Source of the DNA: Burkholderiaceae bacterium
Lineage (GTDB): Bacteria; Pseudomonadota; Gammaproteobacteria; Burkholderiales; Burkholderiaceae_E
Reading direction: 5' to 3'
Assembly (NCBI GenBank): GCA_044359405.1
Contig: JBIKMC010000001.1
Span: 1 to 41,871, forward strand
Length of the DNA: 41,871 bases
Part shown: piece by piece, positions 22,150-25,996 of the stretch
Numbering within the stretch: position 1 is the stretch's first letter
Layout of the letters: each line of letters begins with the position of its first letter
Program-made: the position numbers and the translations under genes
The notes under the pieces: generated by a model
Seen by the model: only the letters and a program-made list of their open reading frames with translations
The model's database searches: none
What the model was told of the DNA's origin: nothing

Positions 22150-23928
22150 ATGGCTCAGGCATCAGCGCTGGCACATGCCCAGGCCTGGTTTGAACGCCTG
22201 GCCCACGCGCTCGAATCGGGTCGTCTCGGTCAGCACGCCGAGCTTGCGAGTCTGTTTGAACCGCAGTGCTTTTGGCGCGACATGCTGGCGTTCACCTGGA
22301 CGATACGCACCTTTGAAGGACTGGATGCGATCGCCGACATGCTGGGCGCCTGTGCTGGCCAGACAGGGGCGCGAGCCTGGCGTGTTGTTGAGGCCACCGA
22401 GGGCCCCAATGATCTGATCGAAGCCTGGTTTCAGTTTGAGACAGCCGTCGGCAGTGGGCGCGGCATCGTCCGGCTGCGCGGCGGGCGATGTTTTATTCTG
22501 CTGACCACTTTGCAAAGCCTTCGTGGCCATGAAGAGCCGGCGGGTGCGCGTCGCGAGCAGGGCACAGTGCACGGGGTGGTGCGGGGTCGGCAAAGCTGGT
22601 TCGAACGCCGCGAGGCCGAACGCGCCCGCTTGGGCCGCGAGGAGCAGCCCTGGTGTCTGATCGTGGGTGCCGGACAGGGTGGTCTTGCTCTGGGCGCGCG
22701 CTTGCGTCGCCTGGGTATTCCCACTCTCATCATTGATCGTCTCGATCAACCGGGCGATACCTGGCGCCGACGCTATCGCTCGCTGTGTCTGCATGATCCG
22801 GTCTGGTATGACCACATGCCCTACCTGCCGTTTCCCGATCACTGGCCCGTGTTTACGCCCAAGGACAAGATGGCGGATTGGCTTAAGGCCTATGCCGACA
22901 TCATGGAGCTGAACGTCTGGTGTCAGACCGCCTGCGTGGGTGCGAGCTACGACGAGCGCGAGGGCCGCTGGACAGTGCGGGTTGATCGTGCTGGTGAGCT
23001 CATCACCTTAAAGCCTGCCCATCTGGTGTTGGCCACGGGCATGTCGGGCGTGCCGCGCATGCCGCAACTGCAAGGTGCCGATGACTTTACCGGCACGCTG
23101 CTGCATTCCAGTCAGTACCAGGGCTCAGCCGATTGGGCGGGTAAACACTGCGTCGTGGTCGGCTCAAACAATTCGGCCCACGACATCTGCGCCGATCTCT
23201 GGGAGCAGGGTGCGCAGGTCACCATGCTGCAACGTTCGCCCACCATTGTGGTGCGGTCGGAGTCACTGCAGAAATACGCCTGGGGTCCGCTGTATTCCGA
23301 GCAGGCGCTGGCGGACGGCGTTACCACCGAGCGTGCTGATCTGCTCGCGGCCTCCTGGCCGCATCGACTGATGCCGGGTCGCCTGCAGCCGGTGTATGCG
23401 CAGATCGAACAGGTGGATGCCGACCTCTACGAGGGTCTGCGGCGTGTCGGCTTCATGGTGCATCTGGGCGAAGACCGCACGGGCATTCATGTGGCCTATA
23501 TGCGGCGGGGTTCGGGTTATTACATCGACGTGGGCGCCTCGCAGCTCATCATGGATGGTCGTATCGCGCTGCGTAGCCCTGCCCATGTATCGCATCTGGA
23601 GGCACGTGCGGTCGTGTTGCAAAGCGGTGAGCGCCTGCCGGCTGACCTGGTGGTGTGCGCAACCGGGTATGGGTCGATGACCGGTTGGGCCGAGCAGCTT
23701 ATCTCGCCTGAGGTGGCTGAGCGCCTGGGTCCCTGTTGGGGCCTGGGCTCGGGCACAAGCGGTGACCCTGGGCCCTGGGAGGGCGAGCTGCGCAATATGT
23801 GGAAGCCCACCGCCCAGCCGGGTCTGTGGTTTCAGGGCGGTAACCTGATGCAGGCGCGTTTTTTCTCGCTATTTTTGGCCTTGCAACTTAAGGCCCGATA
23901 CGAGGGGCTAGCAACGCCAGTGTTCTGA
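22150..23928 (+). CDS. class B flavin-containing monooxygenase with ~165-aa N-terminal extension
   Basis: FAD motif LIVGAGQGGLALGARL begins near residue 170. Second dinucleotide motif VVVGSNNSAHDI and ATG motif VVCATGYG. The N-terminal domain has no cofactor motif that I can see. Confidence 0.82.
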   Translation: MAQASALAHAQAWFERLAHALESGRLGQHAELASLFEPQCFWRDMLAFTWTIRTFEGLDAIADMLGACAGQTGARAWRVVEATEGPNDLIEAWFQFETAVGSGRGIVRLRGGRCFILLTTLQSLRGHEEPAGARREQGTVHGVVRGRQSWFERREAERARLGREEQPWCLIVGAGQGGLALGARLRRLGIPTLIIDRLDQPGDTWRRRYRSLCLHDPVWYDHMPYLPFPDHWPVFTPKDKMADWLKAYADIMELNVWCQTACVGASYDEREGRWTVRVDRAGELITLKPAHLVLATGMSGVPRMPQLQGADDFTGTLLHSSQYQGSADWAGKHCVVVGSNNSAHDICADLWEQGAQVTMLQRSPTIVVRSESLQKYAWGPLYSEQALADGVTTERADLLAASWPHRLMPGRLQPVYAQIEQVDADLYEGLRRVGFMVHLGEDRTGIHVAYMRRGSGYYIDVGASQLIMDGRIALRSPAHVSHLEARAVVLQSGERLPADLVVCATGYGSMTGWAEQLISPEVAERLGPCWGLGSGTSGDPGPWEGELRNMWKPTAQPGLWFQGGNLMQARFFSLFLALQLKARYEGLATPVF

Positions 23929-24006
23929 GGATTCAGTGAGCCTGCGTTGTTGGTGGAATGCTGCGGCTGTCGGTGTAGGCTCTGGGATTCTGATTGGAGC
24001 ACGACG

Positions 24007-24420
24007 ATGGCGGACGAAAATCTGGACCTTAGCCCCCTTGACCGGGCAATCGATCGCCTGAGCGAAGGCTGGGTGCGGTATCAGCAAGACACTCGCGACA
24101 CCCAAATCCGCGATGGGCTGATTCAGCGATTCGAGTTCACCTACGAAATCAGTCACAAAATCCTCAAGCGCCATCTGAAGGCTACATCAGCCAACCCGGC
24201 TGAATTCGACGATATGAGTTTTCGGGATCTGATCCGCACAGGTAACGAGTAAGGCCTGCTGAAGAGCGCCTGGCCTGACTGGAAACGCTACCGCGATATG
24301 CGATCCAAAACCAGCCACACCTATGATGAGGATGTTGCGCTGGAGCTTGTTTCCGGCATACCGATGTTTATGGCTGAGGCTAGTTACCTGCGAGATCAGA
24401 TCAAAGCCCGTCAGGTATGA
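24007..24420 (+). pseudogene. HEPN-domain toxin of the HI0074 / nucleotidyltransferase-substrate-binding family, interrupted by an in-frame TAA
   Basis: 81 codons (MADENLDLSPLDRAIDRL..FRDLIRTGNE), then TAA at 24250-24252. The same frame then continues for 55 codons (GLLKSAWPDWKRYRDMRSKTSHTYDED..) to TGA at 24418-24420. The combined 137 codons fit family length. The Rx4HxY motif RSKTSHTY (24301-24324) lies after the stop. GGAG lies 7 nt upstream of ATG 24007. Confidence 0.8.
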
Positions 24421-24746
24421 CGCAGCGACCCCCGCCCATCGACATCCAACCCGACCACTGGGTCATTGTGCGTGACATCCTGCGCAGGCATGTGCCGAAC
24501 TATGAGGTCTGGGCATTCGGTTCTCGCGCAACGGGCAAGGCCAGAGAATTTTCAGATCTGGATCTGGTCATCATGACCGACAAACCGCTGTCTCTGGATG
24601 TCAGTGCCGGTTTGAGTGACGAGTTCTCAGAATCTGACCTGCCCTGGAAGGTTGATATCGTTGATTGGTCCACCACCCGCGAATCGTTCAGAGCAATTAT
24701 CGAACGCGACAAGGTGGTGGTGCAGCACCGAGCCAACTGCGCCTGA
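24417..24746 (+). CDS. minimal nucleotidyltransferase (MNT/MntA-like, HI0073 family) antitoxin
   Basis: Pol-beta NTase motif GSRATGKAREFSDLDLVI (GSx10-11 SDxDL). 109 aa. The start ATG overlaps the HEPN-frame TGA (ATGA at 24417-24420). Confidence 0.85.
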   Translation: MTQRPPPIDIQPDHWVIVRDILRRHVPNYEVWAFGSRATGKAREFSDLDLVIMTDKPLSLDVSAGLSDEFSESDLPWKVDIVDWSTTRESFRAIIERDKVVVQHRANCA

Positions 24747-24749
24747 AGA

Positions 24750-24790
24750 TCAGACGTTGAGCGAAATCACCTGTTCGACTCAGACGTTGA
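24750..24790. repeat. 11-bp perfect direct repeat tcagacgttga, two copies 30 bp apart, at the ychF 3' end
   Basis: Copy B (24780-24790) is the ychF stop plus its last three codons (FNV*). Copy A (24750-24760) lies in the 33-bp spacer after the MNT gene and is followed by degenerate similarity (cgaaatcac versus cggaaatgcatcac). Confidence 0.7.
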
Positions 24791-25874
24791 ACCGGAAATG
24801 CATCACATCGCCGTCGCGCAGGACGTAATCCTTGCCCTCCAGCCGCATCTTGCCCTTGTCTTTGGCGCCTGACTCACCGCCACAGGCGATGTAGTCGTCG
24901 TAGGCGATCGTTTCAGCGCGGATGAAGCCGCGCTCAAAATCGGTGTGAATGACGCCGGCTGCCTGAGGTGCAGTGGCTCCGGTACGTACCGTCCAGGCGC
25001 GTACTTCTTTTTCGCCTGCGGTGAAGTAGGTCTGCAGGCCCAGCAGCTTGAAGGCGGCGCGAATCACACGATTCAGGCCGGGTTCTTCCATGCCCATGTC
25101 GGCCAGAAAAACCTGCTTATCTTCGTCGCTCATATCGGCAATTTCTGCCTCGATCGCGGCGCACACGGGCACCACGAGGGAGCCCTCGGCCTGCGCGTGA
25201 CGCATGACCGCATCCAGGTGAGGATTGTCGCTGAAACCACCTTCCTTCACGTTGGCCACATACATGGTGGGCTTGGCGGTGATGAGGCACAGTGGCTTGA
25301 GCAGGGCCTTTTCTTCCTCGTAGAGATCGAGCGATCGTACTGGTCTTGCCTCGTTGAGCACCATCAGGCACTTCTCAAGCACAGCGACCAGGCGCTGCGC
25401 CTCTTTATCGCCGCCCGCCCGCGCCACCTTGGAATAGCGCACCATGGCCTTGTCGACCGTGGCCAGATCGGCCAGGGCAAGCTCGGTGTTGATGACTTCA
25501 ATGTCGGACAGTGGATCGATCTTGCCGCTGACGTGGACCACATTGCCGTCATCGAAGCAGCGCACCACATGCGCAATGGCATCGGTTTCGCGGATGTTGG
25601 CCAGAAACTGATTACCCAGGCCCTCGCCTTTGGAAGCGCCAGCGACCAAGCCCGCGATGTCGACGAACTCGACCGTGGCCGGCAATACCCGTTGCGGTTT
25701 GACGATGCCCGCCAAAGCCGTCAGGCGCGGATCGGGCACCTCGACGATGCCCACGTTGGGCTCGATGGTGCAAAACGGATAGTTCTCGGCTGCAATGCCC
25801 GCCTTGGTCAGCGCATTGAAGAGGGTGGACTTGCCCACATTGGGAAGTCCGACGATACCAACCTGAAGGCTCAT
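24780..25874 (-). CDS. ychF: ribosome-binding ATPase YchF
   Basis: [23 protein letters not shown] (G1), [17 protein letters not shown] and the C-terminal TGS-like end [11 protein letters not shown]. Start at the internal ATG 25874. Confidence 0.95.
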
Positions 25875-25996
25875 GATTGCGTTCCAATCTGAAGTGTGCA
25901 CCATTGTACCGAGGGGGCGAGGTGTTCCCGTCCTCGGCACTGGGCTTGATGAGCGGGCGCGCCCCAGTGCGTGCCCGCAGGAGTACCATTTCGGTC

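What the first reader, a model, noticed from the sequence alone, without database searches (positions are those of the whole stretch)
24007..24746. HEPN/MNT toxin-antitoxin pair whose toxin has one in-frame TAA just upstream of its Rx4HxY catalytic motif
The HI0074-like HEPN frame is intact over 137 codons except for TAA at 24250-24252. The catalytic motif RSKTSHTY (24301-24324) and the ATGA overlap with the MNT gene (24417-24420) are both preserved downstream. No other decay is visible.

This looks like a very recent nonsense inactivation of the toxin with the antitoxin retained. In characterised MntA-HepT modules the NTase AMPylates a Tyr within or near this motif, so the predicted target residue is no longer translated. 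Alternatives are a sequencing error, a low level of readthrough, or a truncated 81-aa N-terminal product with its own role. A premature stop 165 nt upstream would also break translational coupling to the MNT gene.

The module is lower in GC than its neighbours. A hand count of the first 180 nt gives 99 G+C (55%), against 40/60 for the start of the adjacent FMO gene. That fits horizontal acquisition.
Basis: partly seen in the sequence, partly recalled or inferred. Interest (0 to 1): 0.62.

Follow-up and report, generated by a model that had tools for sequence, protein, structure and literature searches.

The report
Recently broken toxin gene, antitoxin retained
A small toxin-antitoxin gene pair in an uncultured lake bacterium has a genuine single-base stop codon that cuts the toxin short while the antitoxin gene stays intact, which is the well-documented first step by which chromosomal toxin-antitoxin modules decay, so it is ordinary.

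Summary
An HI0074-type HEPN gene (PF08780/TIGR01987) runs from 24007 to 24420. It has one in-frame TAA at 24250-24252 and overlaps an intact 109-aa MNT gene (24417-24746) by ATGA.

The stop is real. Every independently assembled contig that reaches it has the same TAA (ENA, JGI and Logan samples). TAA is a normal stop in this genome, and no suppressor tRNA was found.

Two related lineages with the same ychF-linked locus carry CAA (Gln) there. All 120 listed homologues are 136-142 aa. dN/dS of the broken gene is as low as between the two intact copies, so the stop is young.

An AlphaFold model places the stop at the end of helix 3. The 81-aa product loses helix 4, the SHTY loop with the Tyr acceptor for AMPylation, and helix 5.

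One nuance: in the closest characterised homologue (Legionella lpg2920/2921), Rx4HxY is not the catalytic site. The Mg2+-site residues lie upstream of the stop.

About 10% of PF08780 genes in this bacterial order carry in-frame stops. Toxin-first decay is established in the literature.

Verdict: a recent toxin pseudogene with a leftover antitoxin; low interest.

The parts
23996..23999 (+). GGAG Shine-Dalgarno sequence 8 nt upstream of the HEPN start codon
   Evidence: Read directly from the sequence. It is conserved in L005. The consensus scan found no sigma-70-like promoter in 23850-24850.
24007..24252 (+). 5' part of the HI0074-type HEPN toxin gene: 81 codons plus the premature TAA. The predicted product holds helices 1-3.
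   Evidence: PF08780 positions 2-72, E 6e-17. The exact 81-aa product is on record on 10 contigs. The AF2 model has helices at 9-27, 32-60, 64-68 and 72-81.
24124..24135 (+). Codons for Q40 to E43. Q40 and E43 are the counterparts of the Mg2+-site residues Q44 and E47 of the Legionella HEPN toxin, and they lie upstream of the stop.
   Evidence: Alignment to 8XDJ/8YUF. Q40 is invariant and E43 nearly invariant in alignments A1 and A2. Mutant data are in PMC11586414.
24250..24252 (+). Premature stop codon TAA at codon 82. The two lineages that share the locus have CAA (Gln) here.
   Evidence: It is identical in all population contigs that reach it. TAA ends 335 of 2039 long frames in this genome, and no TAA-reading tRNA was found.
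24253..24420 (+). 3' remnant of the HEPN gene: 55 codons plus TGA, still in frame. It encodes helix 4, the SHTY loop and helix 5.
   Evidence: PF08780 positions 82-125, E 1e-9. Model helices at 89-100 and 108-136. dN/dS against L005 is 0.25.
24301..24324 (+). Rx4HxY motif RSKTSHTY (R99, H104, Y106). Y106 is the predicted acceptor for AMPylation by the MNT. The motif is not translated in this allele.
   Evidence: Y105 is AMPylated in the Legionella homologue (PMC11586414). One strain variant has two changes here, S100Y and S103R.
24417..24746 (+). Intact MNT (minimal nucleotidyltransferase) antitoxin gene, 109 aa, HI0073-like, overlapping the HEPN stop by ATGA.
   Evidence: PF01909 at 1e-12 and PF18765 at 7e-13. 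PDB 1NO5 (HI0073) at E 3e-30. dN/dS against L005 is 0.14. There is no Shine-Dalgarno sequence upstream.
24519..24563 (+). GSx10DxD nucleotidyltransferase motif of the MNT (G35-S36 ... D47-L48-D49), intact.
   Evidence: Read from the translation. The motif definition is from PMC7641770.

Best explanation
This is a class I (type VII-like) HEPN/MNT toxin-antitoxin module of the HI0074/HI0073 subfamily. It sits in a variable region at the 3' end of the core gene ychF.

What happened: a single C-to-T change turned Gln codon 82 of the toxin gene into TAA. The change is found in every sampled member of a nearly clonal lake population.

Consequence for the toxin: the 81-aa product ends at the last residue of helix 3. 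It lacks helix 4, the loop carrying the Rx4HxY motif and its Tyr acceptor, and helix 5. In the Legionella homologue that loop forms part of the dimer interface, and the active cleft is built from helices 2-4 of both subunits. The truncated protein is therefore most probably unfolded or inactive (inferred).

Consequence for the antitoxin: the MNT gene is intact only because the event is young. It has no evident partner left in the genome. It has also probably lost most of its translation, which appears to depend on coupling to the toxin's stop codon (inferred).

Overall, this is step one of the usual two-step erosion of chromosomal TA modules, in which the toxin goes first and the antitoxin later.
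For: - Family and fold: PF08780 on both halves. TIGR01987 scores 80.1 bits against a cut-off of 55.8. The AF2 model has pLDDT 94.7. Foldseek gives TM 0.87 to HI0074 (1JOG) and 0.81-0.85 to the Legionella AMPylated HEPN toxin. The MNT matches HI0073 at 3e-30.
- The stop is real: Logan contigs from 4 runs are identical. Six further distinct ENA, JGI and Logan contigs that reach it carry it. TAA is an ordinary stop here and no suppressor tRNA was found.
- The stop is derived: CAA in L005 (85% nt identity, same flanks) and in the same-genus genome G001. All 120 listed homologues are 136-142 aa.
- The stop is young: there is no other stop or frameshift. dN/dS against L005 is 0.09 (N part) and 0.25 (C part), against 0.09 and 0.32 between the two intact genes. 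The search listed no homologue more than 90% identical.
- Hints that decay has begun: the window-lineage changes G87S and V114L fall at columns that are at least 90% conserved, both downstream of the stop. One strain variant adds S100Y and S103R in the motif, and S103 is invariant in the family.
- No other partner for the MNT: the genome has no second PF08780 gene, no PF01934 gene and no MNT paralogue.
- Base rate: 7 of 74 PF08780 matches in 401 genomes of the order have in-frame stops, and about 9 more are partial matches (two of them two pieces of one gene).
- Literature: toxin inactivation precedes antitoxin loss, with 185 toxin-only against 8 antitoxin-only pseudogenised copies in Photorhabdus (PMC13617665).
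Against: - No raw reads could be inspected. Read laying closed, and Logan contigs drop rare variants, so a minority intact allele within samples cannot be excluded.
- There are no RNA or protein data. The look-up of sequencing runs closed.
- Many of the samples probably come from one lake time series. They are independent assemblies but not independent populations.
- Loss of function of the 81-aa fragment is inferred from a model and a homologue, not shown. The fragment keeps the counterparts of the Legionella Mg2+-site residues.
- The excess of window-lineage replacements downstream of the stop is not significant (Fisher p = 0.24).
- The motif variant rests on a single contig.
Confidence: 0.85

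Rival explanations
1. The module is attenuated, not dead. Either low-level readthrough of TAA produces a little full-length toxin, or ribosomes reinitiate at ATG 24298. The second route would give a 40-aa C-terminal peptide and would also restore coupling to the MNT. Under this reading the MNT is retained because it is still needed.
For: The downstream frame is fully open and its dN/dS is low at 0.25. An in-frame ATG at 24298 opens a 40-aa ORF that ends in the same ATGA overlap, and the JGI gene caller annotated it on 9 contigs. In the one strain variant, two of its four SNPs over 3.6 kb fall in the 24-nt motif. That could reflect selection on a residual product.
Against: Low dN/dS is equally expected for a young pseudogene, and it equals the intact-versus-intact value. 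From general knowledge, UAA is the least leaky stop codon. No suppressor tRNA was found. There is no Shine-Dalgarno sequence before 24298. A 40-aa peptide with part of helix 4 and helix 5 cannot form a HEPN bundle on its own. S103R hits an invariant residue, which suggests relaxed rather than maintained constraint.
Confidence: 0.07
2. The 81-aa N-terminal fragment (helices 1-3) has a role of its own. For example, it might bind RNA or the MNT, or act as a dominant-negative partner for related HEPN toxins arriving on mobile elements.
For: The fragment keeps Q40 and E43, counterparts of the Mg2+-site residues needed for toxicity in the Legionella homologue. It also has a good Shine-Dalgarno sequence. 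The allele is in every sampled contig.
Against: In the Legionella structure, the loop lost here contacts helices 1 and 2 of the partner chain, and the cleft needs helices 2-4 (PMC11586414). No family member of this length appears among 120 homologues. The 81-aa cluster has a single member. Fixation in a nearly clonal population needs no selection.
Confidence: 0.05
3. The TAA is a sequencing or assembly artefact, or TAA is decoded as an amino acid in this organism.
For: The source is a fragmented MAG of 453 contigs, with contig depth only about 5-10x in the runs laid.
Against: The same base appears in Logan contigs from 4 runs and in 6 further distinct ENA, JGI and Logan contigs. TAA ends 335 of 2039 long frames, and no tRNA with anticodon TTA was found among 34 tRNAs.
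Confidence: 0.02

Closest known systems
Legionella pneumophila HEPN-MNT module (lpg2920/lpg2921; PDB 8XDJ, 8XEH, 8YUF; PMC11586414)
   Same: Gene order is the same: HEPN first, then a short MNT, with overlapping genes (8 bp there, 4 bp here). The fold is the same five-helix HEPN (TM 0.81-0.85; sequence E 4e-8). The key residues are conserved: Q44/E47 correspond to Q40/E43, and R98/H103/Y105 correspond to R99/H104/Y106. The Legionella toxin is experimentally toxic and is neutralised by poly-AMPylation of the Tyr.
   Different: Sequence identity is only about 28%. The window's toxin gene is interrupted at codon 82, so the Tyr acceptor and the last two helices are not made. The window's MNT did not match the Legionella MNT chain at E <= 0.001. 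Nothing has been tested experimentally here.
Haemophilus influenzae HI0073/HI0074 pair (PDB 1NO5/1JOG; TIGR01987)
   Same: These are the best structural and sequence matches for both proteins. HEPN: E 2e-20 to 4e-20 and TM 0.87. MNT: E 3e-30. The HEPN passes the TIGR01987 cut-off.
   Different: HI0074 is an intact protein of about 146 aa. The pair was described as a nucleotidyltransferase with a substrate-binding subunit, not tested as a toxin-antitoxin pair (my own knowledge of the 2002-2005 structure papers).
Shewanella oneidensis HepT/MntA (SO_3166/SO_3165), the type VII TA prototype (PMC7641770)
   Same: It is a class I HEPN/MNT pair by the authors' own definition: PF01934 or PF08780 next to PF01909, with Rx4HxY and GSx10DxD motifs. 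The antitoxin polyadenylylates the motif Tyr.
   Different: It belongs to a different HEPN Pfam family (DUF86) and the fold match is weaker, TM about 0.65. The MNT gene comes first, and that MNT has a long C-terminal helix absent from the 109-aa protein here. The window's MNT is below the MntA equivalog cut-off, 42.7 against 60 bits.
Erosion of chromosomal TA systems (Photorhabdus survey, PMC13617665; ccdO157 decay in E. coli, Mine et al. 2009, cited in PMC2654758)
   Same: The toxin is pseudogenised with the antitoxin intact. The TA islet lies beside a core gene, in a high-turnover spot, with no mobility gene nearby. The module is absent from most congeners.
   Different: Those studies cover type II systems in cultured Enterobacterales. 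This is a type VII-like HEPN/MNT module in an uncultured lake Burkholderiales MAG, caught when the one stop is the only disabling lesion.

Membership tests
Class I HEPN/MNT toxin-antitoxin pair (definition of Yao et al. 2020, PMC7641770) | A HEPN-superfamily gene of Pfam PF01934 or PF08780 | tested here: met
   PF08780 on both halves, 62.3 and 38.5 bits against a cut-off of 31.8.
Class I HEPN/MNT toxin-antitoxin pair (definition of Yao et al. 2020, PMC7641770) | An Rx4HxY motif in the HEPN protein | tested here: met
   RSKTSHTY is encoded at 24301-24324 in the HEPN frame. It lies downstream of the premature stop, so it is present in the gene but not in the predicted product.
Class I HEPN/MNT toxin-antitoxin pair (definition of Yao et al. 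2020, PMC7641770) | A neighbouring MNT gene (PF01909) with a GSx10DxD motif | tested here: met
   PF01909 at 1.3e-12. The motif GSRATGKAREFSDLD spans residues 35-49. The genes overlap by ATGA.
Class I HEPN/MNT toxin-antitoxin pair (definition of Yao et al. 2020, PMC7641770) | An uninterrupted toxin reading frame, needed for a functional module | tested here: not met
   TAA at codon 82, present in every contig that reaches it. By descent the locus belongs to the family, but it is not a working member.
Class I HEPN/MNT toxin-antitoxin pair (definition of Yao et al. 2020, PMC7641770) | The HEPN protein is toxic and is neutralised by MNT-catalysed AMPylation of the motif Tyr | not testable with these tools
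   This needs a kill-rescue assay and mass spectrometry. It is inferred only from the Legionella and Shewanella homologues.
HI0074 family (NCBIfam TIGR01987) paired with an HI0073-like NTase | Score above the curated TIGR01987 cut-off | tested here: met
   80.1 bits against a cut-off of 55.8, on the read-through translation with X at the stop.
HI0074 family (NCBIfam TIGR01987) paired with an HI0073-like NTase | The helical-bundle fold of HI0074 | tested here: met
   AF2 model with pLDDT 94.7. Foldseek top hit is 1JOG, TM 0.87 and rmsd 1.7 over 136 columns. The model is of the read-through protein, not of the 81-aa product.
HI0074 family (NCBIfam TIGR01987) paired with an HI0073-like NTase | The partner gene resembles HI0073 | tested here: met
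   phmmer against PDB: 1NO5 (HI0073) at E 3.4e-30 over residues 8-106.
MntA antitoxin equivalog (NCBIfam NF047752) | Score above the curated equivalog cut-off | tested here: not met
   42.7 bits against a cut-off of 60. The protein is related to MntA but not an equivalog. It should be filed as HI0073-like MNT.

The most novel reading that the evidence does not exclude
The allele is not null. Residual full-length toxin from rare TAA readthrough, or a two-piece HEPN made of the 81-aa fragment plus a reinitiated 40-aa C-terminal peptide, keeps some activity. Under this reading the MNT is still needed, and the two further replacements in the Tyr loop of one strain (S100Y, S103R) are second hits selected to remove or retune that residual activity. 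This would be a natural example of a split or attenuated HEPN toxin.
Probability: 0.05. Interest if true: 0.5.

Novelty: new member of a known kind. Interest (0 to 1): 0.15.

Why it matters
It matters little beyond correct annotation. The locus should be labelled as a HEPN toxin pseudogene plus an orphan HI0073-like MNT, not as two or three small ORFs. Gene callers currently split it into products of 81 aa, sometimes 40 aa, and 109 aa.

It is a clean, datable snapshot of the first step of chromosomal TA erosion in a wild, uncultured population, for a TA type where erosion has not been surveyed. It could serve as one data point in such a survey.

One cautionary point may be useful to other readers of this scan. 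For the PF08780 subfamily, the Rx4HxY motif should not automatically be called catalytic. The only close homologue tested uses a Mg2+ site on helix 2.

Tried and rejected
1. **Sequencing or assembly error:** rejected. Contigs from many assemblies are identical at the stop.
2. **TAA reassignment or a suppressor tRNA:** rejected. TAA ends 335 long frames, and no TTA-anticodon tRNA was found among 34. The genome is only 89.6% complete, so a missing tRNA cannot be ruled out entirely.
All 120 listed homologues are 136-142 aa.
4. **An intact allele of the same species:** searched for and not found. The closest homologue listed is 90% identical. Every contig carrying the exact MNT that reaches upstream has the 81-aa call.
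5. **MNT kept to serve another HEPN toxin:** no support. The assembled genome has no other PF08780 or PF01934 gene and no MNT paralogue.
The 11-nt repeat copies at 24750-24760 and 24780-24790 both lie between the MNT and ychF. No further copy of the 18-nt ychF end exists in the window at up to 3 mismatches.
7. **Low GC as proof of recent transfer:** weakened. The relatives' modules have the same low GC, and divergence from G001 is as deep as for ychF.
8. **Promoter and terminator consensus scan of 23850-24850:** found nothing.
9. **PADLOC:** no hit for the HEPN. The MNT hits only an HsdS-fusion model and PDC-S09 candidates, which was not informative.

Full report
**The observation**

The frame opens at ATG 24007 and reads 81 codons to a TAA at 24250-24252. 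It then continues in the same frame for 55 more codons to the TGA at 24418-24420. That TGA is part of an ATGA overlap with a 109-aa ORF at 24417-24746. The motif RSKTSHTY is at 24301-24324.

The two pieces hit adjacent parts of one Pfam profile, PF08780 NTase_sub_bind. The N piece covers positions 2-72 (E 6e-17) and the C piece covers positions 82-125 (E 1e-9). The downstream ORF is a minimal nucleotidyltransferase (PF01909, PF18765). With X at the stop, the protein passes the curated HI0074 family model TIGR01987 (80.1 bits, cut-off 55.8). The flanking genes are an FMO-like flavoprotein (22150-23928, + strand) and ychF (24780-25940, - strand).

**Is the stop real?**

The window is contig C312 of a 3.7-Mb, 453-contig MAG from lake water.
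- Logan contigs from four runs labelled with different samples and studies match 23900-24800 with no differences.
- The exact MNT protein is on record on 17 contigs. Every one that reaches upstream has the 81-aa truncated call.
- Seven further fetched loci from ENA, JGI and Logan assemblies reach the stop, representing 6 distinct contigs (L007 and L015 are one contig). All carry TAA. Five are 100% identical to the window over 23900-24800, and the sixth differs at two bases.
- The exact 81-aa product occurs on 10 contigs from four sources.
- TAA ends 335 of 2039 long frames in this genome. No tRNA with a TAA-reading anticodon was found among 34.

The stop is therefore a genuine allele, present in all sampled members of a nearly clonal population (at most 4 SNPs in 3.6 kb).

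There are caveats. The contigs are consensus sequences. Many of the samples probably belong to one lake time series; this is an inference from sample naming (locus L018). Within-sample allele frequencies and transcription could not be examined.

**Is it derived, and how old is it?**

Two other lineages have the module at the same ychF-linked position.
- A metagenome contig, L005, is 85% identical in nucleotides, and the homology runs into both flanks.
- The same-genus genome G001 (locus L002) is about 74-76% identical.

Both have an uninterrupted 137-codon gene with CAA at codon 82, and both keep the ATGA overlap. All 120 listed homologues are 136-142 aa. In the 111 I could register, the column holds R (49), Q (47), H (9), N (4), M or L. 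The lesion is therefore a single C-to-T transition in a Gln codon, and the family does not naturally end there.

Nei-Gojobori dN/dS between the window and L005 is 0.09 for codons 1-81, 0.25 for codons 83-137 and 0.14 for the MNT. The two intact genes compared with each other give 0.09, 0.32 and 0.11. No relaxation is detectable, so the stop is young relative to the split from L005 (dS about 0.2-0.6).

There are hints that decay has begun.
- With G001 as outgroup, four of the six amino-acid replacements on the window branch lie downstream of the stop. Two of them, G87S and V114L, hit columns that are at least 90% conserved. The excess is not significant (Fisher p = 0.24).
- The only variant contig in the population has four differences from the window in 3.6 kb. 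Two of these are S100Y and S103R inside the motif, and S103 is invariant in the family. This rests on one contig.

**What the stop removes**

An AlphaFold2 model of the read-through protein, built on a 30-sequence alignment, is confident (pLDDT 94.7, pTM 0.88). It has helices at 9-27, 32-60, 64-68, 72-81, 89-100 and 108-136, with the SHTY loop at 101-107. Foldseek finds HI0074 (1JOG, TM 0.87), then the Legionella AMPylated HEPN toxin (8XDJ, TM 0.81-0.85). The Shewanella HepT is further away, at about 0.65.

Codon 82 is the first residue after helix 3. The product therefore lacks helix 4, the Tyr loop and helix 5.

**Comparison with characterised systems**

The closest tested homologue is Legionella lpg2920/lpg2921 (PMC11586414). 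It has the same gene order, with HEPN first and then a short MNT, and the genes overlap by 8 bp. Its MNT poly-AMPylates Y105 of the Rx4HxY loop.

In that protein, R98A and H103A remain RNase-active and toxic. Q44A and E47A, which alter a Mg2+ site on helix 2, abolish activity and rescue growth. By the alignment, Q44 and E47 correspond to window Q40 and E43. Q40 is invariant and E43 nearly invariant in the family, and both are upstream of the stop. R98, H103 and Y105 correspond to R99, H104 and Y106, downstream of it.

The truncation is still expected to be inactivating. In the Legionella structure the lost loop hydrogen-bonds to helices 1 and 2 of the partner chain, and the cleft is built from helices 2-4 of both subunits. 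That step is inferred, not shown.

By the definition of Yao et al. 2020, a class I HEPN/MNT pair is PF01934 or PF08780 next to PF01909, with Rx4HxY and GSx10DxD motifs. By descent the locus is a class I pair. Its MNT has an intact GSRATGKAREFSDLD motif, and its best PDB match is HI0073 (3e-30). It falls below the MntA equivalog cut-off (42.7 against 60 bits).

**Fate of the antitoxin**

The HEPN gene has a GGAG 8 nt before its start. The MNT start has no comparable sequence in any of the three lineages. This fits translation by termination-reinitiation at the ATGA. A stop 165 nt upstream should then lower MNT synthesis (inferred).

The assembled genome is 89.6% complete. It has no second PF08780 gene, no DUF86 HepT and no MNT paralogue. 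Nothing suggests the MNT is kept for another toxin. Its intactness is most simply explained by lack of time.

**Context and origin**

Within the genus, only G001 shares the module (2 of 14 genomes). In the order, 54 of 401 genomes have a PF08780 gene. None of the 80 named ychF loci carries the module, including the closest (YchF 96% identical). The sequence 3' of ychF differs in every relative examined. The nearest named genomes are uncultured Burkholderiaceae or Burkholderiales MAGs from fresh water. The site is a high-turnover boundary next to a core gene.

Synonymous divergence of the module between the window and G001 (1.07-1.80) is like that of ychF (1.38). This is compatible with long residence followed by repeated loss.

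It is equally low in the two relatives (0.549 and 0.565). GC is therefore a property of the family and is not evidence of recent arrival.

**How common is this?**

Of 74 PF08780 matches in 401 genomes of the order, 7 including this one contain in-frame stops. About 9 more are partial matches, two of them two pieces of one gene.

A 2026 survey of Photorhabdus reports frequent TA pseudogenisation, with toxin inactivation preceding antitoxin loss. It counts 185 toxin-only, 186 both-gene and 8 antitoxin-only pseudogenised copies. It also finds TA islets in high-turnover spots, often without mobility genes (PMC13617665). The decay of ccdO157 in E. coli is the older example (cited in PMC2654758).

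**Verdict**

The locus is a recent, real nonsense pseudogene of an HI0074-type HEPN toxin, with its HI0073-type MNT left over. It is an ordinary stage of a known process in a known family.

The rivals cannot be excluded without experiments, but nothing positive supports them. They are residual activity by readthrough or reinitiation, and an independent role for the 81-aa fragment. Interest is low.

Noticed in passing
window 24305 and 24315 (variant in locus L007, the same contig as L015, JGI sample 3300044733): The only population variant has two C>A changes 10 nt apart. Both are non-synonymous (S100Y, S103R) and both lie inside the RSKTSHTY motif downstream of the stop. The contig has two further SNPs in the FMO gene, at 22281 and 22365. 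The variant may be real continuing decay or a low-coverage artefact.
   Followed up: partly
window 24750-24760 and 24780-24790: An exact 11-nt direct repeat, TCAGACGTTGA, occurs twice. One copy is the true ychF 3' end and the other lies 4 nt after the MNT stop. Both copies are on the same side of the TA module, so they do not bracket it. The first copy is degenerate in L005 and absent in G001.
   Followed up: partly
window 24780 (ychF 3' end), compared with loci L016, L017 and L019-L021: Homology between the window and its closest named relatives stops within a few bases of the ychF stop codon. Each relative has different genes beyond it. L016, for example, has a flavodoxin-like NAD(P)H dehydrogenase, a RidA-like protein and a creatininase-like protein. 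This is a sharp variable-region boundary with no mobility gene.
   Followed up: partly
window 25044 (ychF): A C/A polymorphism is shared by three independent contigs (L006, L009, L014). It is the only recurrent SNP seen in about 3.3 kb of this otherwise clonal population.
   Followed up: no
window 24417-24743 (MNT protein): The best PADLOC hit for the MNT is a 'Type I specificity subunit' model (PDLC03138, 1e-20, model positions 2-100 of 485). The model evidently includes MNT-HsdS fusion proteins. Earlier notes of this scan report such MNT-HsdS fusions in other genomes.
   Followed up: no
genome G000, contig not recorded (aragorn output): aragorn reports a tRNA-SeC (anticodon TCA) and an unusual tRNA-Cys with anticodon ACA in this MAG. 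Only 34 tRNAs were detected in the 89.6%-complete assembly.
   Followed up: no
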